Under the pieces are notes generated by a model. It saw only the letters and a list, made by a program, of their open reading frames with translations, was not told the origin of the DNA and did no database searches. The position numbers were made by a program, and so were the translations under genes. Shown piece by piece: positions 3,215-40,487 of a stretch of DNA of 42,526 bases (its first letter is position 1; each line of letters begins with the position of its first letter). This DNA comes from a virus. The stretch is from UHGV virus genome UHGV-0239872; one strand, written 5' to 3'.

Positions 3215-3687
3215 AGTTATTTCTCCAGTTGTTGGCTATTTTCAGGTGGATAGTGAACCCATTGTGACGCGCCGTACAGTCTGCACTCAGTGGCATTGAT
3301 TGGCTTGTCGGATTCACTACCCTGAAAAATCGCCCCGCCCATTTCGCGCTGTGAGTCACCACTCACTCTCAGGAGTCCTTTAGCAGTCCGTCGCGTATCT
3401 TGCTCACCGTTGCCAGCTAACAAGCCGTTTGACTACCCACCTACTACCCTCCGCGCCTTATAAGACGTTCGGTATTGTGCTGATACTGCGCTGCGTCTAT
3501 CGCGCTTCTCCGTTACCTTGCATCAGGCGCTACCCCTACGGCGTTAGCAATGTTGCGATACCGTTGCCTTTCGGCGATGCCTCACCCAGTTCCAACCTGC
3601 GGCGGATACCCAGTGAGCCGTGACACTACGCGGCCAGTTTGCGTTCACTCAGAGCAGGATGCTTTCCATCCTTTCAACTCGGTGCTG

Positions 3688-3716
3688 ATTACAACACAGT
3701 GTATTCAGCTTGTCAA
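3688..3716 (-). promoter_or_regulatory. sigma70-type promoter A (minus strand: TTGACA-N17-TGtTGTAAT, extended -10)
   Basis: rc of 3711-3716 is TTGACA; rc of 3688-3693 is TGTAAT; 17-nt spacer; TG at -15/-14. Confidence 0.6.
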
Positions 3717-3767
3717 CTACTTTTTACTTCTGACTGACTGGCTTGCTGCCCTGTCAATCTGGTGTGC

Positions 3768-3796
3768 ATTACAGCATACTCGTTTCATCCTGTCAA
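3768..3796 (-). promoter_or_regulatory. sigma70-type promoter B (TTGACA-N17-TGcTGTAAT)
   Basis: same module as A; part of the repeated unit ATTACAGCATA...CTGTCAAC on the plus strand. Confidence 0.6.
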
Positions 3797-3905
3797 CCGA
3801 TTTAATCAGCGCCCGTTCAGAGTTAATTAAACCGTACCAGTTAGCCTGCGCGGGTGTTAACGTGTTTATCCATCACTATTCGGCTTGTCTGGCTGACGTG
3901 GAAGC

Positions 3906-3934
3906 ATTACAGCATAGTGAGCTTGCCTTGTCAA
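3906..3934 (-). promoter_or_regulatory. sigma70-type promoter C (TTGACA-N17-TGcTGTAAT)
   Basis: same module; 17-nt spacer. Confidence 0.6.
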
Positions 3935-4006
3935 CACACCAGATTGTTAAAGAGCAGTGCTACCGTTCAATCTTGTCTACTGGGCTAGTGCCTTTCGACG
4001 TGATGA

Positions 4007-4036
4007 ATTACAGCACATAACCAAAACAGTTTGCAA
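4007..4036 (-). promoter_or_regulatory. sigma70-type promoter D (TTGCAA-N18-TGcTGTAAT) with AT-rich UP-like sequence upstream
   Basis: rc of 4031-4036 is TTGCAA; rc of 4007-4012 is TGTAAT; AT-rich 4037-4060. Confidence 0.5.
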
Positions 4037-4164
4037 GTATTATTTTCAAGAAAAGTGATAAGTTACTGTAATCATTAGGATTAAAGTTTGATTAGATAAT
4101 CACAACACTGGATAGAATACCGTTAGATTACCATGAATAAATCCTTATAAATCAATGATTAAAT

Positions 4165-4182
4165 GAAAGTAACTATAGTGAT
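4165..4182 (-). promoter_or_regulatory. candidate phage-RNAP promoter core (minus strand ATCACTATAGTTACTTTC, contains the SP6/T7/K11-type CACTATAG)
   Basis: exact 18-nt repeat of 26325-26342 in opposite orientation; sits in a roughly 180-bp AT-rich island between the terminus-like repeats and the sigma70 promoters, a position analogous to T7 phiOL. Confidence 0.4.
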
Positions 4183-4199
4183 AGATATCGCTAGATAGC

Positions 4200-4660
4200 T
4201 GTCAGCGAGCGCGGCGCAGCCGAAACAAGCGAGCGCGGAACGGCAACGGATGGAATCCGACAGGATGACAGGCGGCAGACAGTGAACGCAGTAGACAGAG
4301 TGTAGGACAGTAACAGCAGGTAGCAGAGCATGACGCGCAGAGCTGGAGGCGCAGACAGTAGACCAGCAGACAGGACAGCACCACGCAGCACCACCGCCAC
4401 CACACAGCACCACGCCGCGCCACGAAAAGAGACAGATACCCGCACGACCACGCGCAGCACGCAGCACAGCACAGCCAGCGCAGAGCGTCCCCATAGGACA
4501 GCACCGCACAGCACAGCCAGCAGGACAGCGCACAGCACGACACACGGCAGACGATGAAACGCGACACGCACGAGCTATACCGCACGCAGGCAATCCTTTC
4601 GACGCGCCGCGCAGCGCACGCGAGCAATTATCGCGCACGTCGCGAGGCTAAACCGCGCAC
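4200..4660. repeat. T-depleted (plus strand almost only A/C/G) CA/GCA-rich low-complexity tract with short imperfect direct repeats; candidate genome-terminus or terminal-repeat-adjacent repeat array
   Basis: T is about 3-8% over about 450 nt; CACAGCACAGCCAGC occurs twice (4465-4479 and 4507-4521); AGGACAGCAC occurs at 4372-4381 and 4496-4505, with a degenerate AGGACAGCGCAC copy at 4522-4533; junk ORFs in all six frames. Confidence 0.5.
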
Positions 4661-4777
4661 ACGCTATGGGGGCACGCGCGGTCATTTGGGTCGAGGGAGG
4701 GGCAAGTATAAACGTGCAATTTTCAAGCCGGGGTATTGCACCCACGGCCTGTTCATTGCCTCAGCTTTTGGATACCC

Positions 4778-5314
4778 CTACAGCGTCGCACAGTAAGCGC
4801 TACAGCGTTTTGCACGAGCAACCAAGGCATCCCTATAGCGAACCACTGTCGGGGCTGTAGAAGCCTTTAGGAACGCAATACGAAGGTCACAGATGGCTGC
4901 TGCTGCGGAGTGAGGTTCCAGACGTTTGGCTGCTGCCACGGTAGCAGGGCCAACAATCCCGTCTTGTGCAACGCCGCATACCCGCTGTAGAGCTTTCGCC
5001 GCACGGGAGACACCGGAGTTGACACCGTAGTCAAACACGGCACATGCAATCGCAGGGTGAAGTTCGTCACCTCGGATGGGGGTGTAGTAATCCCGTCGAT
5101 AGATTGCTTCGGCTTGTGCTTTGGTGAGCTGCTTGATAGGTACACAAATAGTGCCGCCAAGCCCAGTAGGGACACCACAAGCTCTGCCATCCAGTTTGCC
5201 ATCACGAGCGTCACTAATTCCATGATTCGTTTCCCCTCCGGTATCGCCGGGCAGCTTGGTGTAACCACCTTCTGCCAGCCCGGTGAACCGCATACAGATT
5301 TCAAAGTTAGTCAT
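4778..5314 (-). CDS. endolysin: GH108 N-acetylmuramidase-like catalytic domain plus PG_binding_3 domain; no SAR or signal sequence
   Basis: TGLAEGGY...DTGGETNHGIS matches the GH108 EGGY motif; C-terminal ...FDYGVNSG...DGIVGPAT matches PG_binding_3; last gene before the non-coding terminus region. Confidence 0.8.
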   Translation of the reverse strand: MTNFEICMRFTGLAEGGYTKLPGDTGGETNHGISDARDGKLDGRACGVPTGLGGTICVPIKQLTKAQAEAIYRRDYYTPIRGDELHPAIACAVFDYGVNSGVSRAAKALQRVCGVAQDGIVGPATVAAAKRLEPHSAAAAICDLRIAFLKASTAPTVVRYRDALVARAKRCSAYCATL

Positions 5315-5697
5315 TACATCCCCAGTAGTGTAGTGATGAAGGCTTGCAGTGAGCTTAAGTCACCAGCCTTGATTGCTAAGTAGATACCGCTACACAGGGA
5401 TGCAGTTAAGAGACACCATTTGACAGCGTGAGCCGCCGCCGTGAACAACTTACCGATGTGGCTCATAGTCTTTTGAATGTCCTGAATTTGCTCAACCACA
5501 AGGAGCTGCTGTTGAACCGTCTGCCAGCGGAGGTCGTTCTCTGCCAGCTTAGAAATCATTGCAGCATCGCCCTTCTCAAGAGTGGCGATTTGTACCTCGT
5601 GCTTGTCAAGTCGAAGTTCTACGGTCTGCATACGAGCCTCCACCGCACCCATACGCGAGTGGATGTTAGGAGATGGCTCCTTCTTTGCTTCCGTCAT
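5314..5697 (-). CDS. lysis-cassette protein with N-terminal coiled-coil and a single C-terminal TMD (127 aa); candidate holin or antiholin with unusual topology
   Basis: ATG 5695-5697 with AGGA SD; hydrophobic stretch WCLLTASLCSGIYLAI near the C-terminus; overlaps the upstream gene by 32 nt and the endolysin start by 1 nt. Confidence 0.45.
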   Translation of the reverse strand: MTEAKKEPSPNIHSRMGAVEARMQTVELRLDKHEVQIATLEKGDAAMISKLAENDLRWQTVQQQLLVVEQIQDIQKTMSHIGKLFTAAAHAVKWCLLTASLCSGIYLAIKAGDLSSLQAFITTLLGM

Positions 5698-6154
5698 CTT
5701 TCACTTTCCTTTTCCACGGAGATGGTACAAACCACATGACTAAACCAAGGATGCACGTAAGGCCCATGCCGAAAGCCCATAGGAGGCTGCGTGGGTCGCT
5801 CTGAGAGACGATAACCGTGCGAGCCTGTACGTTTCCTTGGGTCATTTGCGACCCCTGCTTAGAAGCGTTTACAGAGCCTCCTGAGACGTCCTTGATGGAT
5901 GTGCCATTCGAACCCTGCTTAGCGGTATCCACTTTCGCGTTGCCTGATACGTCACCGACTTCTGTTTCGTCGGACTGTTTCGCAGTCACACCGATACCTT
6001 GCTTCGTATTCTCTGCACCTACTTGAGCCGTCAGTTCCGGCTTGTTGGGAGATACAGCCGAAGTTACAGCAGACAGTGCGCTAGTTGCGGAGCAGCCCGT
6101 CAGAGTCAGCGACGCTGATAGGACTGCCCCGGCCATTAGCCGAGACAGTTTCAT
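5666..6154 (-). CDS. lipoprotein with lipobox LTGC and a C-terminal TMD (162 aa); candidate unimolecular spanin (T1 gp11-like architecture)
   Basis: signal MKLSRLMAGAVLSASLTLTG|C with Ser at +2; repetitive periplasmic region (AKQG/GDVSG repeats); C-terminal LLWAFGMGLTCILGLVMWFV followed by KRKVKDD. Confidence 0.5.
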   Translation of the reverse strand: MKLSRLMAGAVLSASLTLTGCSATSALSAVTSAVSPNKPELTAQVGAENTKQGIGVTAKQSDETEVGDVSGNAKVDTAKQGSNGTSIKDVSGGSVNASKQGSQMTQGNVQARTVIVSQSDPRSLLWAFGMGLTCILGLVMWFVPSPWKRKVKDDGSKEGAIS

Positions 6155-6164
6155 GAGATACCCC

Positions 6165-6359
6165 TTACGCTGCGGCGTTAGTCAGATTAGTGAGCGCCGT
6201 CTGAACACGGGTCACGAACTCTTGATAATACGCCACCAGCTCAGTGTTGGTGGTATCGAAGAAGTAGTCTTCCGTCCAAACGTTCAGATACTTGGCCGCC
6301 ATATTACAGGCTGCCACGAACTCCGCACGTTCAGTAGCGGTAGAGTCAACAAGTGCCAT
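6165..6359 (-). CDS. hypothetical soluble protein (64 aa) in the lysis region
   Basis: strong AAGGAG SD; no TMD. Confidence 0.5.
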   Translation of the reverse strand: MALVDSTATERAEFVAACNMAAKYLNVWTEDYFFDTTNTELVAYYQEFVTRVQTALTNLTNAAA

Positions 6360-6370
6360 AAAGATTCTCC

Positions 6371-7051
6371 TTAAGAGAGTGTAATGCCAGTGATTGCACC
6401 AGCGGAAACAGCGAAGGTCACGGTGTCGGTGTACGTGCCAGTGACCGGGATGGTCAGTGCATCACCGTTATCCACCATGGCCACAGTAGCGGCGAGGTTG
6501 AAGCCAGTGAGAGCACCGTTGCTTGCCACGACAGCAGTGGCGTTATGGCCGTCAGCACCAGCAGAGTTACGGACGGAGTAAGCCGAACCGTTAAGCACTG
6601 CATCGGCGTTAGCCGGGAGCCGCACGTTACTCAGCAGACCATCAGCTACACGGGCGGTAGCAGTGGTGATACCGAGGATAGAGCCGTCGAAGCGACGAAT
6701 CTCAGTTGAGTCAGTGTGGTCTACCAGCGCTGCGGTAGACAGGACGAGCTGCACGTTATCCAGCGTGGTGCCAGTAACGTTGGCAGTGGCGTTGTGCGCG
6801 TCGTTACCTGCGGAGTTAACCATGGAAACAGTAGCGCCGTCAGCCAGCAGAGCGGAACCTTCCGGTGTACCCGCGTAGCCAGCAGCCTCAAGTGCCGCCA
6901 CCAGATTTGTGATGGCAGTTTCAATGTCAGCAGCCTGAGCTGCCGTCACTGTACGGGTATCATTGCTGAAGCGTTGAGTCACGTTAGCTGCGATGCCGCA
7001 GCGATAACCAAGCTCGTAACGCTGAGCATCAGTGATGGTGATAATGGACAT
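6371..7051 (-). CDS. hypothetical Ala/Thr/Asn-rich protein with internal repeat (226 aa), immediately after large terminase
   Basis: ATG overlaps the TerL stop (ATGA-type junction); repeat NSAGNDAHNATANVTG / NSAGADGHNATAVVAS. Confidence 0.45.
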   Translation of the reverse strand: MSIITITDAQRYELGYRCGIAANVTQRFSNDTRTVTAAQAADIETAITNLVAALEAAGYAGTPEGSALLADGATVSMVNSAGNDAHNATANVTGTTLDNVQLVLSTAALVDHTDSTEIRRFDGSILGITTATARVADGLLSNVRLPANADAVLNGSAYSVRNSAGADGHNATAVVASNGALTGFNLAATVAMVDNGDALTIPVTGTYTDTVTFAVSAGAITGITLS

Positions 7052-8811
7052 TATTTGATTCTCCGTCGCGTGCCGCGCACAGGTTTATGGCTGCGCCACT
7101 TCGAGTCATCGTAACCCATTGGGTTGGCAAGGAACTCTCGTGCAGCAGCAGTCTCACGTTTGGCGGCTTCTTCATGTTCGTCCTGCTGTAGCACCTCAGC
7201 GTGCAGGTACACGGCAGCAGACAGGGTTTCGATGCGGTCATCATGGGGGATGGATTGACGGTCTTGTGTCAGGTTCTGGAGCTGCCAGAATAGGCTGAAC
7301 TCACGACCACCGTTATTCATACCCCGGCACAGCCGCAGGTCTTCTTCAACAACGCACCAATGTACAACGACACGGTGACGCTGCATGATTGGGCCGAGGC
7401 GGTTGATGATACGCACCTCTTTCTGACCGGACGAATACACGCCCTCGCAGCCAATGGTCAAGCTCTGCCGCTTAATCTCACCTCGGTACATGTTGGTCAC
7501 GGTGCCGTGGCCCATGTTATCCTCAATGACCAGCCGTTTAACCCCGGTTTCAGCGAGCCACTCTACCGCCGCCTTGATGTTTTCCTCCGTCTGGCCGCCG
7601 TGGTAGACGTGCATACCGATGACGTGGATAAACGGGCCGACAGAAGCGGTGGCAATGATAACTGATTCGTCCGACCCACCACCAGCAGGGTCAAGAAACG
7701 CCGAGGTATTTTCGAATGGTACATAAGTGTCCGAGAAATCAGCAGCCAAGAATAGCTGAGCACGAGCCAGTGGGAAATCCAGTGGCAGCTCGGCGGCATG
7801 GCGCGGGTGGTTCGACCAATGCAGAACCTCCGGCGCAGACTGCGTTGAGCCGTGGAAGAAGATTAAGTCTTTGAGATGTAACGTTTGTTTGAGCGCATCC
7901 GACAGCGACGTATCCAGCATGAACTGCAACTGGAAGCCTGCCTGCTGGTAGTCTCGTTCGTTCTGCAACTGCTTTTCTTCGGAGTAGCGTTGCGGGTCGG
8001 TCTGCGCACCACGGTTCCCAAGGATACCGTAGCCAGTGCGTAGCTCAGGGTGGCCTTCCATCTTCTGCTTAATCCACGGGGCCAGACAGCCGCCGTAGCG
8101 TTCTTCTTCCTCAACCGTTGGGAAACGACCGGGCCAGATGCGAACGTCGAAGCCACGCTGCGGGAGCGTGTTGTAGATGGAGTCCTGCGTCTGCGGTGTG
8201 CCGAGGTACAGAATCTCTGCACCATCGTTGGCGATAGCCGCAAACTCTTTGGTCAGGGTGTTGATACGGGCGCGGTTGGCAGGAGAGCTACCGTTACTGG
8301 TAGTCTCCACGTCATCGGCAATCAACAGCGATACGTGGTTCCCCTGCAACTGGCCGAAGATACCGACCGCTTTTACAGAGGGCTGTTTGTCAGGGATACG
8401 GAATGCGTGATGCACGTCGAAGCCGTCCGTATAGGACGTACGTGCGCCAGCGCGAGTCTCAGGGCGCAGCCATTCCAGACGCTCCCATTGCATAATGGCA
8501 GACACGATGGCGTGCGACAGCGTACCCGCATAGTCGTCCGAACCAGATACCAGCAACACAGTGGCGTTCGGCATCTGGACGAACTCGTACAGGGCGCGAG
8601 CAATACCGATGGTGGACTTTGCCTCACCGCGCTGAGCCATGACGCACTTGTTCTTGAGCGTCCGGTCGGCCATGTAGCGGCCAATGTCGAGCTGCATTTC
8701 AGTGAGGTCAAAGCCCAGCCATGCGAAGTAGTCATGCAGGAACAGCGGGAAGTTGTTCTCGTAGTGAGCGCGAACGATTCCTGCCATCACCATGCGGCGT
8801 TGTAAATCCAT
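7051..8811 (-). CDS. terminase large subunit (T7 gp19-like, 586 aa)
   Basis: PSVKAVGIFGQLQGNHVSLLIADDVE, YLGTPQT and AGFQLQFMLDTSLSD align with T7 gp19 motifs; same length as T7 gp19. Confidence 0.93.
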   Translation of the reverse strand: MDLQRRMVMAGIVRAHYENNFPLFLHDYFAWLGFDLTEMQLDIGRYMADRTLKNKCVMAQRGEAKSTIGIARALYEFVQMPNATVLLVSGSDDYAGTLSHAIVSAIMQWERLEWLRPETRAGARTSYTDGFDVHHAFRIPDKQPSVKAVGIFGQLQGNHVSLLIADDVETTSNGSSPANRARINTLTKEFAAIANDGAEILYLGTPQTQDSIYNTLPQRGFDVRIWPGRFPTVEEEERYGGCLAPWIKQKMEGHPELRTGYGILGNRGAQTDPQRYSEEKQLQNERDYQQAGFQLQFMLDTSLSDALKQTLHLKDLIFFHGSTQSAPEVLHWSNHPRHAAELPLDFPLARAQLFLAADFSDTYVPFENTSAFLDPAGGGSDESVIIATASVGPFIHVIGMHVYHGGQTEENIKAAVEWLAETGVKRLVIEDNMGHGTVTNMYRGEIKRQSLTIGCEGVYSSGQKEVRIINRLGPIMQRHRVVVHWCVVEEDLRLCRGMNNGGREFSLFWQLQNLTQDRQSIPHDDRIETLSAAVYLHAEVLQQDEHEEAAKRETAAAREFLANPMGYDDSKWRSHKPVRGTRRRIK

Positions 8812-29124: not shown

Positions 29125-29301
29125 CTACGCAAGACAGGCAAACAGAATAGCAGGGATGACAGCCAAGAATACCCACAGTATAAAGCCTGCTGCACCAGAC
29201 CTGTCAACGTGTGTCTTGTTGTACTGGTCGCACGCAGCCAGACAGACAACAGAGAACAGGGCAAACCATACCACAGCTACAATCCAAAGTAAAACACTCA
29301 T
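29125..29301 (-). CDS. small two-TMD membrane protein (58 aa, holin-like topology)
   Basis: two hydrophobic helices separated by a charged loop; ATG overlaps the upstream stop (ATGA). Confidence 0.45.
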   Translation of the reverse strand: MSVLLWIVAVVWFALFSVVCLAACDQYNKTHVDRSGAAGFILWVFLAVIPAILFACLA

Positions 29302-39853: not shown

Positions 39854-40290
39854 TCGTTATCCCAGTCCGGTATGTACTGAATCTTCTTCTTCATCTTCAC
39901 GCTGGCCACAACTTGCAGCACACGGACAGTACCACCGTGGCGCTCGGCCAGACGCTCAGCTTCATCACGCGCCTCACGCTCAGTGATATGCTCAACCTTC
40001 GGCGGCGCGTTGCTGCCTTCGACCAAGCACATGAACCGACCACGCTTCTCGGCTGGCGTGCTGACCAGACTGGTGTTGTCTTCCAGCCAGTCAGATTTGT
40101 AGTGGCTGATATCCGGCTGCGCATTCATGCGCTCACCAATCCAGCTCACGATGTAACGGGTCTCCCCGCTACGCTCCCACGCTCGGCGGTCAGGGTTAAC
40201 CCATGCGATGATGCCCAGCTTACCCGACCGGGTGCCAGTGCCATCGTCGCCTACGATTTCATCCCCGACTTTATACTTTGGCTTCACCAT
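39850..40290 (-). CDS. hypothetical protein (146 aa)
   Basis: ORF in gene-dense minus-strand block. Confidence 0.45.
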   Translation of the reverse strand: MVKPKYKVGDEIVGDDGTGTRSGKLGIIAWVNPDRRAWERSGETRYIVSWIGERMNAQPDISHYKSDWLEDNTSLVSTPAEKRGRFMCLVEGSNAPPKVEHITEREARDEAERLAERHGGTVRVLQVVASVKMKKKIQYIPDWDNE

Positions 40291-40487
40291 TTAATCCACC
40301 TCCGGCTCTGGCCTACGTCAAGGCTGAACGCCATTAAGCCCCAGCCCACCAGCATACCGAGTATCGTACCCAACCCACCCGTCGCTGATTCACCAAGGGC
40401 AGGCACCAGCACAGTTACTGCCAGTACGCACCAGATAGCACCCCATATTAATACGAGGAACAGGAACAACAATATAACTCTGAACAT
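40284..40487 (-). CDS. small two-TMD membrane protein with basic C-terminus (67 aa, holin-like topology)
   Basis: two hydrophobic helices; C-terminal QSRRWIKW; GAGGA SD. Confidence 0.5.
   Translation of the reverse strand: MFRVILLFLFLVLIWGAIWCVLAVTVLVPALGESATGGLGTILGMLVGWGLMAFSLDVGQSRRWIKW

What the first reader, a model, noticed from the sequence alone, without database searches (positions are those of the whole stretch)
5314..6371. Non-canonical lysis cassette with a u-spanin-like lipoprotein and a C-terminally anchored coiled-coil protein but no canonical holin
The GH108 endolysin has no signal or SAR sequence, so a holin is needed. The adjacent genes are not a class I/II holin or an Rz/Rz1 pair. 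The 5666..6154 product has a lipoprotein signal (LTG|C, Ser at +2, so outer-membrane sorting) plus a C-terminal TMD. This is the defining architecture of unimolecular spanins (T1 gp11), which are unusual in T7-like phages, and its periplasmic part is a Gly/Lys/Gln-rich repeat region. The 5314..5697 product has a long N-terminal coiled-coil and a single TMD near its C-terminus (type-II-reversed topology), which is unusual for a holin. The gene overlaps are tight, with a 32-nt overlap between the two genes and a 1-nt ATG/stop overlap with the endolysin. Two small two-TMD holin-like proteins are encoded far away at 29125..29301 and 40284..40487.
Basis: partly seen in the sequence, partly recalled or inferred. 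Interest (0 to 1): 0.68.

Follow-up and report, generated by a model that had tools for sequence, protein, structure and literature searches.

The report
Phage lysis cassette with unrecognised holin candidate
This is the cell-bursting gene set of a J8-65-like (Bonnellvirus) coliphage: its one-piece spanin is already catalogued, and the unnamed 127-residue membrane protein beside it is most likely the missing holin, of a type not yet described for phages of Gram-negative bacteria.

Summary
On the minus strand, a 162-aa lipoprotein with a C-terminal transmembrane domain (TMD) (5666..6154) overlaps a 127-aa helical protein by 32 nt. That protein has a C-terminal hydrophobic segment (5314..5697) and overlaps a soluble GH108 endolysin (4778..5314) by 1 nt.

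The window is a Bonnellvirus (Autographiviridae), 96-97% identical to phages mellemsur and BHUENT7.

The 162-aa protein is a T1 gp11-family unimolecular spanin (hhalign 99.2%). Its J8-65 and LIMEzero orthologues were already listed in that family in 2018, so this part is known. It is not unusual among phiKMV-like podophages.

The 127-aa protein (PHROG 35530, function unknown) is the interesting part:
- It has distant homologues in at least eight lineages.
- Each sits directly upstream of an endolysin that lacks any export signal, whether GH108 or T4-type lysozyme.
- Sister phages with a 51-55% identical spanin carry a pinholin plus a signal-arrest-release (SAR) lysozyme in the same slot.
- No canonical holin is conserved elsewhere in the genome.

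I conclude it is the holin or an essential holin subunit (confidence 0.6). Its nearest analogue is XhlA/SPP1 gp24.1 of Bacillus phages, but homology is unproven. A conserved internal ribosome-binding site suggests two products, of 127 and 105 aa.

The parts
5666..6154 (-). Unimolecular spanin (u-spanin), 162 aa, T1 gp11 family
   Evidence: PHROG 1804 'Rz-like spanin', E 7e-36. hhalign of the homologue alignment A2 against T1 gp11 gives probability 99.2%, E 2.6e-19, 38% identity over 125 columns. There are 184 homologues, some named 'RzlA (u-spanin)'. The J8-65 orthologue is listed in the T1 family by Kongari 2018.
6092..6154 (-). Lipoprotein signal peptide of the u-spanin, ending in the lipobox L18-T19-G20-C21 (6092..6103). 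Ser22 at +2 predicts sorting to the outer membrane.
   Evidence: Read directly from the sequence. L18 and C21 are invariant and G20 is at least 90% conserved in 34 homologues. The +2 rule is established knowledge.
5828..5953 (-). Two copies of a 21-aa periplasmic repeat in the u-spanin (aa 68-109, DVSGNAKVDTAKQG... / DVSGGSVNASKQG...). Shorter homologues have one copy and LIMEzero has three.
   Evidence: DV[ST]G lies at residues 68 and 89 in the window protein, and at 68, 89 and 110 in LIMEzero. Self-alignment score is 42 against a shuffle maximum of 33, with 0 of 500 shuffles reaching it. The copy-number differences are visible in alignment A2.
5717..5785 (-). C-terminal inner-membrane TMD of the u-spanin (aa ~124-146), followed by a basic cytoplasmic tail (KRKVKDDGSKEGAIS)
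   Evidence: Kyte-Doolittle 19-residue maximum is 2.01 at residue 125. AlphaFold2 models a helix at 121-142; the 10-residue blocks spanning it average pLDDT 75 and 83. The segment is conserved in homologues.
5314..5697 (-). 127-aa helical, C-terminally anchored protein (PHROG 35530). Proposed holin or holin subunit.
   Evidence: PHROG 35530, function unknown, E 2.5e-57. The family was found by profile search. In eight lineages it lies directly upstream of a signal-less endolysin. It occupies the slot that holds a PF04971/PF16080 holin in sister phages. AlphaFold2 gives pLDDT 84.
5629..5641 (-). Internal GGAGG Shine-Dalgarno (5637..5641) placed 5 nt before the Met23 ATG (5629..5631). Putative second start giving a 105-aa product.
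   Evidence: GTGGAGGCTCGTATG is invariant at the nucleotide level in 8 bonnellviruses although neighbouring wobble positions vary. LIMEzero keeps AGGAGG-N5-ATG even though the encoded residue differs. The N-terminal 22 residues are nevertheless conserved as protein.
5359..5418 (-). Hydrophobic core W94-I109 (5371..5418), flanked by conserved K93 and K110, followed by the invariant G112-D113 kink (5359..5364) and a 14-aa amphipathic tail
   Evidence: Alignments A3 and A6. Kyte-Doolittle maximum is 1.58. AlphaFold2 shows a helix break at residues 112-113.
4778..5314 (-). Soluble GH108 endolysin, 178 aa, with a PG_binding_3 domain
   Evidence: PF05838, E 1e-21; PF09374, E 4e-5. PHROG 315 endolysin, E 2e-40. 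There is no N-terminal hydrophobic segment.

Best explanation
The three overlapping genes at the end of the late operon form a complete spanin-holin-endolysin lysis cassette.

1. **The 127-aa protein is the holin, or an indispensable holin subunit (inferred).**
   - Its long N-terminal helix stays in the cytoplasm and oligomerises as a coiled coil.
   - Its short C-terminal hydrophobic helix anchors it in the inner membrane, N-in and C-out by the positive-inside rule.
   - At a set time the accumulated protein permeabilises the membrane.
   - Two products, of 127 and 105 aa from Met1 and Met23, may set that time.
2. **The soluble GH108 muramidase then reaches and degrades the peptidoglycan.** The enzyme family is shown. 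Its dependence on a hole in the membrane is inferred from the absence of any export signal.
3. **The 162-aa u-spanin completes lysis.** It is lipid-anchored in the outer membrane through Cys21 and anchored in the inner membrane by its C-terminal TMD. Once the wall is gone it is free to collapse and fuse the two membranes, as proposed for its homologue T1 gp11. The homology is shown; the function is inferred from gp11.
For: **Identity of the u-spanin**
- It matches T1 gp11 and PHROG 1804. gp11 complements the lambda RzRz1 defect (PMC6139136).

**Position of the 127-aa gene**
- Pectobacterium phage PPWS1 and a 45-kb metagenomic phage have u-spanins 51-55% identical to this one. In both, the gene between spanin and endolysin is a PF04971/PF16080 holin, and the endolysin has a SAR-type hydrophobic N-terminus.
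- KP34-like phages have the same spanin-holin-endolysin order (PMC4411677).
- Here the slot holds the 127-aa gene, followed by a soluble endolysin.

**Association with soluble endolysins**
- The family's members are 21-65% identical to the window protein, and all share a 16-residue core flanked by K/R on both sides and then a G-D pair.
- In eight lineages the gene lies immediately upstream of an endolysin that lacks an N-terminal hydrophobic segment. The endolysin is GH108 in three lineages and PF00959 in six contigs.
- Three of these lineages also have an overlapping gp11-type u-spanin upstream.

**No alternative holin**
- A hydropathy scan of every coding-strand ORF in the window, J8-65 and LIMEzero finds no other membrane protein shared by all three.
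- The contig L007 has no other TMD protein from 5 kb upstream to 3 kb downstream.
- Kongari 2018 notes that J8-65 and LIMEzero are the only T1-family cassettes without a pinholin and SAR endolysin. A large-hole holin is therefore expected.

**Analogue**
- SPP1 gp24.1/XhlA has the same plan, a coiled coil plus a C-terminal TMD. It also has a dual start, localises to the membrane and is a holin component (PMC6316719).
- hhalign between the two families gives probability 93%, E 2.7e-7. Reversed and column-shuffled controls give 5.6% or less.

**Dual start**
- The internal GGAGG before Met23 is conserved.
Against: - No experiment exists for any member of the family.
- The hydrophobic core is short and only marginally hydrophobic. 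One homologue, P0165, is weaker still.
- No curated holin model matches the protein.
- In every studied case XhlA-type proteins work with a separate two-TMD holin and are harmless alone (PMC6316719; PMC10630273). A partner may therefore be needed here.
- The similarity to XhlA is local (38 columns). An XhlA HMM scores generic 'RLDxLExR' coiled-coil proteins that lack a TMD as high as it scores this family.
- Adjacency to the endolysin would equally fit an antiholin or another lysis regulator.
Confidence: 0.6

Rival explanations
1. The 127-aa protein is only an accessory or timing subunit (XhlA-like or antiholin-like). The pore is formed by a separate small two-TMD protein encoded elsewhere, most plausibly the early-region 67-aa protein at 40284..40487, or else the 58-aa protein at 29125..29301.
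For: - In PBSX and SPP1 the XhlA/gp24.1 component and the two-TMD XhlB/gp26 are each harmless alone and lethal together. SPP1 gp26 is transcribed early and gp24.1 late (PMC6316719).
- In Enterococcus phages XhlA always accompanies a canonical holin (PMC10630273).
- The 67-aa two-TMD protein has homologues in 20 Bonnellvirus records, including J8-65 gp11.
Against: - Neither small protein has a homologue in LIMEzero, which keeps the spanin, the 127-aa homologue and the GH108 endolysin.
- The 58-aa protein is absent from J8-65, smaasur, Lidtsur and LF82-23.
- Neither protein matches any holin family.
- No two-TMD ORF lies near the homologues in the metagenomic contigs.
Confidence: 0.22
2. The 127-aa protein is not a lysis protein. 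It would be a membrane-associated coiled-coil protein with another late function, for example in assembly, superinfection exclusion or envelope remodelling, that merely sits in the cassette. The endolysin would escape by an unknown route.
For: - There is no functional annotation anywhere (PHROG 35530 'unknown').
- The TMD is marginal.
- Coiled-coil similarity is unspecific.
Against: - The gene is tightly coupled to the endolysin start codon in eight lineages, across two unrelated endolysin families.
- It replaces a bona fide holin in otherwise syntenic relatives.
- A soluble endolysin requires a membrane lesion (established knowledge).
Confidence: 0.1
3. The real holin is the +1-frame ORF embedded in the endolysin gene (4867..5304, usable Met at about 5223). 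It encodes a strongly hydrophobic TMD followed by a basic stretch (SPKHKPK).
For: - The frame stays open for 135-147 codons and keeps its TMD (Kyte-Doolittle 2.0-2.35) in all 8 bonnellviruses compared.
- From my own knowledge, not checked here: out-of-frame holin genes embedded in endolysin genes are known in some Gram-positive phages.
Against: - Third-position variability of the endolysin frame is not reduced over the putative TMD (0.33, against 0.28-0.50 elsewhere).
- Every such change alters the embedded product, so there is no sign of selection on that frame.
- LIMEzero has no TMD in that frame (Kyte-Doolittle 0.92).
- No protein family matches it.
Confidence: 0.03

Closest known systems
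T1 gp11 unimolecular spanin family (Summer et al. 2007; Kongari et al. 2018, T1 family of 28 members including J8-65 and LIMEzero)
   Same: - It has an outer-membrane lipoprotein signal plus a C-terminal TMD.
- The motif TAQVGAENTKQ is conserved.
- There is no periplasmic cysteine.
- hhalign gives 99.2% probability and 38% identity to gp11.
- It lies in a lysis cassette next to the endolysin.
   Different: - It is about 30 residues longer than gp11 because a 21-aa periplasmic repeat is duplicated. The repeat is triplicated in LIMEzero.
- It is paired with a soluble endolysin and a non-pinholin partner. The rest of the family goes with a pinholin plus a SAR endolysin.
KP34-like / Phimunavirus lysis cassette (u-spanin - pinholin - SAR endolysin)
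   Same: The gene order, the position after TerL and a homologous u-spanin are shared (PMC4411677).
   Different: The holin-endolysin pair is replaced as a unit. The 127-aa coiled-coil/TMD protein and a soluble GH108 enzyme stand in place of a 70-88-aa PF04971/PF16080 holin and a SAR T4-type lysozyme.
XhlA / SPP1 gp24.1 (Pfam PF10779), holin component of Bacillus phages
   Same: - It has an N-terminal coiled coil, a single C-terminal TMD and a short tail.
- It is encoded beside the endolysin.
- A dual-start motif is present.
- Short motifs are shared: E..D[KR]H[DE]xQI, and EN..W (or IEKNTT in distant members).
- hhalign gives 93% probability.
   Different: - An extra helix of about 35 residues lies between the EN..W motif and the TMD.
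- A K-x-G-D turn and an amphipathic tail are present.
- Scores are far below the Pfam cut-off (13 bits against 34.7).
- The similarity is not separable from generic coiled-coil repeat proteins.
- No XhlB-type partner lies in the cassette.
- The host is Gram-negative and a spanin is present.
Class III holins (T4 T; single-TMD holins of T1 and KP34)
   Same: It has a single predicted TMD and would serve a soluble endolysin, as T4 T does.
   Different: - The polarity is reversed. The large domain here is N-terminal and cytoplasmic, not C-terminal and periplasmic.
- There is no sequence similarity to the T1 holin (hhalign probability 1.8%).

Membership tests
T1 gp11 u-spanin family | N-terminal lipoprotein signal with a lipobox Cys and a non-Asp residue at +2 (outer-membrane sorting) | tested here: met
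   LTG|C21-S22. L18 and C21 are invariant, and G20 is at least 90% conserved, in 34 homologues. Actual lipidation cannot be tested here.
T1 gp11 u-spanin family | C-terminal transmembrane domain anchoring the protein in the inner membrane | tested here: met
   Kyte-Doolittle maximum 2.01 at residues 125-143. AlphaFold2 helix at 121-142. A basic tail follows.
T1 gp11 u-spanin family | Sequence homology to gp11 across the periplasmic domain | tested here: met
   hhalign 99.2%, E 2.6e-19, 38% identity over 125 columns. PHROG 1804, E 7e-36.
T1 gp11 u-spanin family | No periplasmic cysteine; beta-rich periplasmic domain | tested here: inconclusive
   There are no Cys among 101 periplasmic residues. 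The AlphaFold2 model of this domain is low confidence (pLDDT 41-51) and has no assigned strands.
T1 gp11 u-spanin family | Complements a lambda Rz/Rz1 defect (outer-membrane disruption) | not testable with these tools
   Shown only for T1 gp11 (PMC6139136).
Holins (functional class) | Small phage-encoded inner-membrane protein with at least one TMD | tested here: inconclusive
   The protein is 127 aa. It has a conserved 16-residue hydrophobic core flanked by K93 and K110, and hydrophobicity is marginal (Kyte-Doolittle 1.58).
Holins (functional class) | [quoted passage not shown] | tested here: met
   There is a 1-nt overlap with a signal-less GH108 endolysin. The same adjacency holds in eight lineages. 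The gene occupies the holin slot of sister phages.
Holins (functional class) | Match to a described holin sequence family | tested here: not met
   No holin model in Pfam, PHROGs or NCBIfam reaches significance. There is no similarity to the T1 holin.
Holins (functional class) | Lethal, timed and energy-poison-triggerable permeabilisation of the membrane that releases the endolysin | not testable with these tools
   This needs expression and complementation experiments.
XhlA / gp24.1 family (PF10779) | Score above the Pfam gathering threshold | tested here: not met
   The window protein scores 13.0 bits against a cut-off of 34.7. Seven of 10 family members give sub-threshold hits, best E 0.0019.
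XhlA / gp24.1 family (PF10779) | Profile-profile homology that is specific rather than generic coiled-coil similarity | tested here: inconclusive
   hhalign gives 93% probability, E 2.7e-7 over 38 columns. Reversed and column-shuffled controls give 5.6% or less. However, an XhlA HMM scores coiled-coil proteins without a TMD as high as it scores this family.
XhlA / gp24.1 family (PF10779) | Architecture: N-terminal coiled coil plus a single C-terminal TMD, beside the endolysin | tested here: met
XhlA / gp24.1 family (PF10779) | Partner two-TMD holin (XhlB/gp26 type) in the cassette | tested here: not met
   No such ORF lies in or near the cassette in the window, J8-65, LIMEzero or L007.

The most novel reading that the evidence does not exclude
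The 127-aa family (PHROG 35530) may be a previously unrecognised holin class of Gram-negative podophages.
- It would be a tail-anchored protein in which a cytoplasmic coiled coil of about 90 residues drives oligomerisation of a short C-terminal membrane helix.
- It would be sufficient on its own to release soluble endolysins.
- It would be timed by two in-frame products of 127 and 105 aa.
- It would be evolutionarily related to the XhlA/gp24.1 holin components of Gram-positive phages.
Probability: 0.3. Interest if true: 0.6.

Novelty: new variant of a known kind. Interest (0 to 1): 0.42.

Why it matters
Bonnellviruses and LIMEzero-like phages are being isolated as biocontrol and therapy candidates. 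No paper found here names their holin. The Kc261 paper recognised only the endolysin, and Kongari 2018 flagged J8-65 and LIMEzero as the only T1-type u-spanin cassettes without a pinholin and SAR endolysin.

Assigning the 127-aa gene to the holin step would complete the lysis pathway for this group and correct 'hypothetical protein' annotations in more than 20 genomes. It would also add a holin with reversed polarity, a large cytoplasmic coiled coil and a C-terminal anchor, to the known repertoire for Gram-negative hosts.

The family also gives a clean natural experiment. The same u-spanin works with two different holin-endolysin modules, which supports the view that u-spanins are indifferent to how the wall is breached.

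The practical value is modest. Holins are already very diverse, and a new family is not in itself surprising.

Tried and rejected
- **Curated holin families.** Pfam, PHROGs and NCBIfam scans of the 127-aa protein and nine homologues found no holin family, only weak coiled-coil hits.
- **Solved structures.** A profile search of the Protein Data Bank found nothing below E 0.08.
- **T1 holin gp13.** It is unrelated (hhalign probability 1.8%).
- **XhlA membership.** I pursued this with a family alignment, hhalign and shuffle controls, then weakened it with my own decoy test. It is kept only as the closest analogue.
- **Two remote two-TMD ORFs.** They are patchily distributed and match no family. 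I rejected them as the main holin and kept them as possible partners.
- **Embedded +1-frame TMD ORF in the endolysin gene.** There is no selection signature and it is absent from LIMEzero, so I rejected it.
- **Holin between the tail fibre and TerS, as in SP6 or JG068** (PMC3765740). No membrane ORF lies there.
- **AlphaFold2 of the u-spanin.** The model was too poor (pLDDT 52) to test the beta-rich periplasmic domain.
- **Fold search of the 127-aa model.** I did not run it, because a single 100-residue helix would match any coiled coil.
- **The search for related loci with the distant alignment.** It failed because no stretch was conserved enough.
- **LIMEzero paper (PMC3126476).** It is not held in the library.
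- **Promoter, terminator and tandem-repeat scans of 3300-7200.** They showed nothing relevant to the cassette.
Full report
**What the window is.** The region matches Enterobacter phage BHUENT7 at 97.4% nucleotide identity and Escherichia phages mellemsur and megetsur at 96%. It matches J8-65 and Lidtsur at about 85%. All are Bonnellvirus, Autographiviridae. All long ORFs lie on the minus strand. In the direction of transcription the gene order is:
- TerL (7051..8811)
- a 226-aa protein (6371..7051)
- a 64-aa protein (6165..6359)
- the 162-aa protein (5666..6154)
- the 127-aa protein (5314..5697)
- the endolysin (4778..5314)

Non-coding DNA follows. In J8-65 this corresponds to the terminal repeat.

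**Check of the observation.** The ORFs, the 32-nt overlap and the 1-nt TAATG overlap are exactly as described.
- The 162-aa protein has the lipobox LTG|C21 with Ser22, and a strong C-terminal hydrophobic segment (Kyte-Doolittle 2.01).
- The endolysin is GH108 plus PG_binding_3 and has no hydrophobic N-terminus.
- AlphaFold2 models the 127-aa protein with pLDDT 84 as one helix over residues 12-111, a break at G112-D113 and a short helix over 114-126.
- Its hydrophobic core is only 16 residues, lies between conserved lysines, and is marginal by both hydropathy scales I applied.
- The Gly/Lys/Gln-rich 'repeat region' of the spanin is a true 21-aa repeat: two copies here, three in LIMEzero and one in the 128-129-aa homologues.

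**The 162-aa protein is a known u-spanin.**
- It hits PHROG 1804 'Rz-like spanin' at E 7e-36.
- It has 184 database homologues, some named 'RzlA (u-spanin)'.
- Its family profile aligns to T1 gp11 with 99.2% probability and 38% identity.
- Kongari et al. 2018 already list J8-65 and LIMEzero in the T1 gp11 family. They call these two 'unusually long' with 'the least sequence similarity', and note that they are the only members not accompanied by a pinholin and a signal-arrest-release (SAR) endolysin (PMC6139136).
- The same table shows that gp11-type u-spanins are common in KP34-, LIMElight- and phiKDA1-like podophages.
- The repeat expansion explains the unusual length.

**The 127-aa protein.**
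- It belongs to PHROG 35530, function unknown. Every record annotates it as hypothetical.
- Close homologues are confined to bonnellviruses and LIMEzero.
- The N-terminal 22 residues are conserved as protein. The long ORF, which overlaps the spanin gene, is therefore real. J8-65 and LIMEzero annotate only the short form, starting at the Met23 equivalent.
- A profile search of 1.8 billion representative proteins found seven distant full-length relatives. Pairwise identities to the window protein within alignment A3 run from 22 to 65%.
- All share the same plan: about 90 helical residues, a 16-residue hydrophobic core bracketed by K/R, an invariant G-D pair and a tail of about 14 residues.

**Genomic context is the main evidence.**
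- In every contig that extends downstream, the homologue abuts or overlaps the start of an endolysin with no N-terminal hydrophobic segment.
- That endolysin is GH108 in the window, LIMEzero and L026. It is a PF00959 lysozyme in L006, L007-L010, L011, L013, L014 and L025.
- In L006 and L011, as in the window, a gp11-type u-spanin lies immediately upstream and overlaps the homologue.
- In contrast, PPWS1 and a 45-kb metagenomic phage have u-spanins 51-55% identical to this one. In the same slot they carry a PF04971/PF16080 holin followed by a lysozyme with a SAR-like N-terminus (Kyte-Doolittle 2.16 and 1.96).
- KP34-like phages have the same spanin-holin-endolysin order (PMC4411677).
- The holin and endolysin have therefore been exchanged as a pair. 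The 127-aa gene is the member of the pair that goes with a soluble enzyme.

**Search for another holin.**
- None of these matches a PHROG or a Pfam holin family.
- The 58-aa ORF is missing from J8-65, smaasur, Lidtsur, LF82-23 and LIMEzero.
- The 67-aa ORF lies in the early region and has no LIMEzero counterpart.
- There is no membrane ORF near TerS, where SP6 and JG068 keep their holin.
- An ORF in the +1 frame of the endolysin gene carries a strong TMD and stays open in eight bonnellviruses. It shows no selection signature and is lost in LIMEzero.

**Closest known analogue.**
- The most frequent weak Pfam hit across the family is XhlA (PF10779), in 7 of 10 members.
- XhlA of PBSX and gp24.1 of SPP1 have the same architecture, localise to the membrane, have a dual start, and form the holin together with a two-TMD partner (PMC6316719).
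- A profile-profile comparison gives 93% probability over 38 columns, with shared motifs around an invariant His. Reversed and column-shuffled controls give 5.6% or less.
- However, an XhlA HMM scores generic coiled-coil repeat proteins that lack a TMD as high as it scores this family. I therefore treat homology as unproven and membership as not established.
- No paper in the library mentions both XhlA and spanins.

**Possible dual start.** GGAGG lies 5 nt upstream of Met23. The 15-nt block GTGGAGGCTCGTATG is invariant in eight bonnellviruses although adjacent wobble positions vary. LIMEzero keeps AGGAGG at the same spacing although the encoded residue changes. This suggests products of 127 and 105 aa, as in lambda S and SPP1 gp24.1. 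It is inferred, not shown.

**Conclusion.**
- The cassette is u-spanin, holin candidate and soluble endolysin.
- The spanin is a known family member.
- The holin candidate is an unannotated family whose assignment rests on position, association with soluble endolysins, architecture and the lack of alternatives.
- I put 0.6 on 'holin or essential holin subunit', 0.22 on 'accessory subunit that needs a separate pore former', 0.1 on 'not a lysis protein' and 0.03 on the embedded ORF.

Noticed in passing
window 4867..5304 (minus strand, +1 frame inside the endolysin gene): An out-of-frame ORF carries a strongly hydrophobic segment (MELVTLVMANWMAELVVSLLGLAALFVYL, Kyte-Doolittle 2.04) followed by SPKHKPK. 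It stays open for 135-147 codons in eight bonnellviruses. Third-position variability of the endolysin frame is not reduced over it, and LIMEzero lacks the TMD. It is probably a by-product of codon composition.
   Followed up: yes
window 40284..40487 (minus strand): An early-region 67-aa protein has two predicted TMDs and a basic C-terminus (GQSRRWIKW). It is conserved but fast-evolving (41-96% identity) in 20 Bonnellvirus records, including J8-65 gp11. It is absent from LIMEzero and matches no family. It could be a partner for the 127-aa protein, or an unrelated early membrane protein.
   Followed up: partly
window 29125..29301 (minus strand): A 58-aa protein with two TMDs lies just upstream of the RNA polymerase gene. 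It was found in only 14 phage records. J8-65 and LIMEzero have an unrelated gene, annotated as 'anti-termination protein Q-like', in that slot.
   Followed up: partly
window 6371..7051 and 6165..6359 (minus strand); L012 249..545, L013 163..459, L029 2177..2491, L016 1291..1743: The 226-aa protein after TerL ends in a motif (T.TFAVSAGAITGITLS). The same motif recurs at the C-terminus of 98-150-aa proteins in the same post-TerL position in distant relatives. The window protein looks internally duplicated, with two stretches matching PHROG 9732. Its function is unknown.
   Followed up: no
window 4323..4424: Short imperfect tandem repeats (a 14-bp unit in 2.4 copies and a 10-bp unit CAGCACCACG in 5 copies) lie in the non-coding stretch downstream of the endolysin gene. 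By comparison with J8-65, this stretch lies beyond the terminal repeat that follows the endolysin gene, toward the early region.
   Followed up: no
L007 4796..7065 (metagenomic relative): In several metagenomic lineages the 127-aa homologue and a soluble lysozyme follow TerL with no u-spanin and no other membrane ORF, from 5 kb upstream to 3 kb downstream. It is unclear how these phages breach the outer membrane, or what their host is.
   Followed up: partly
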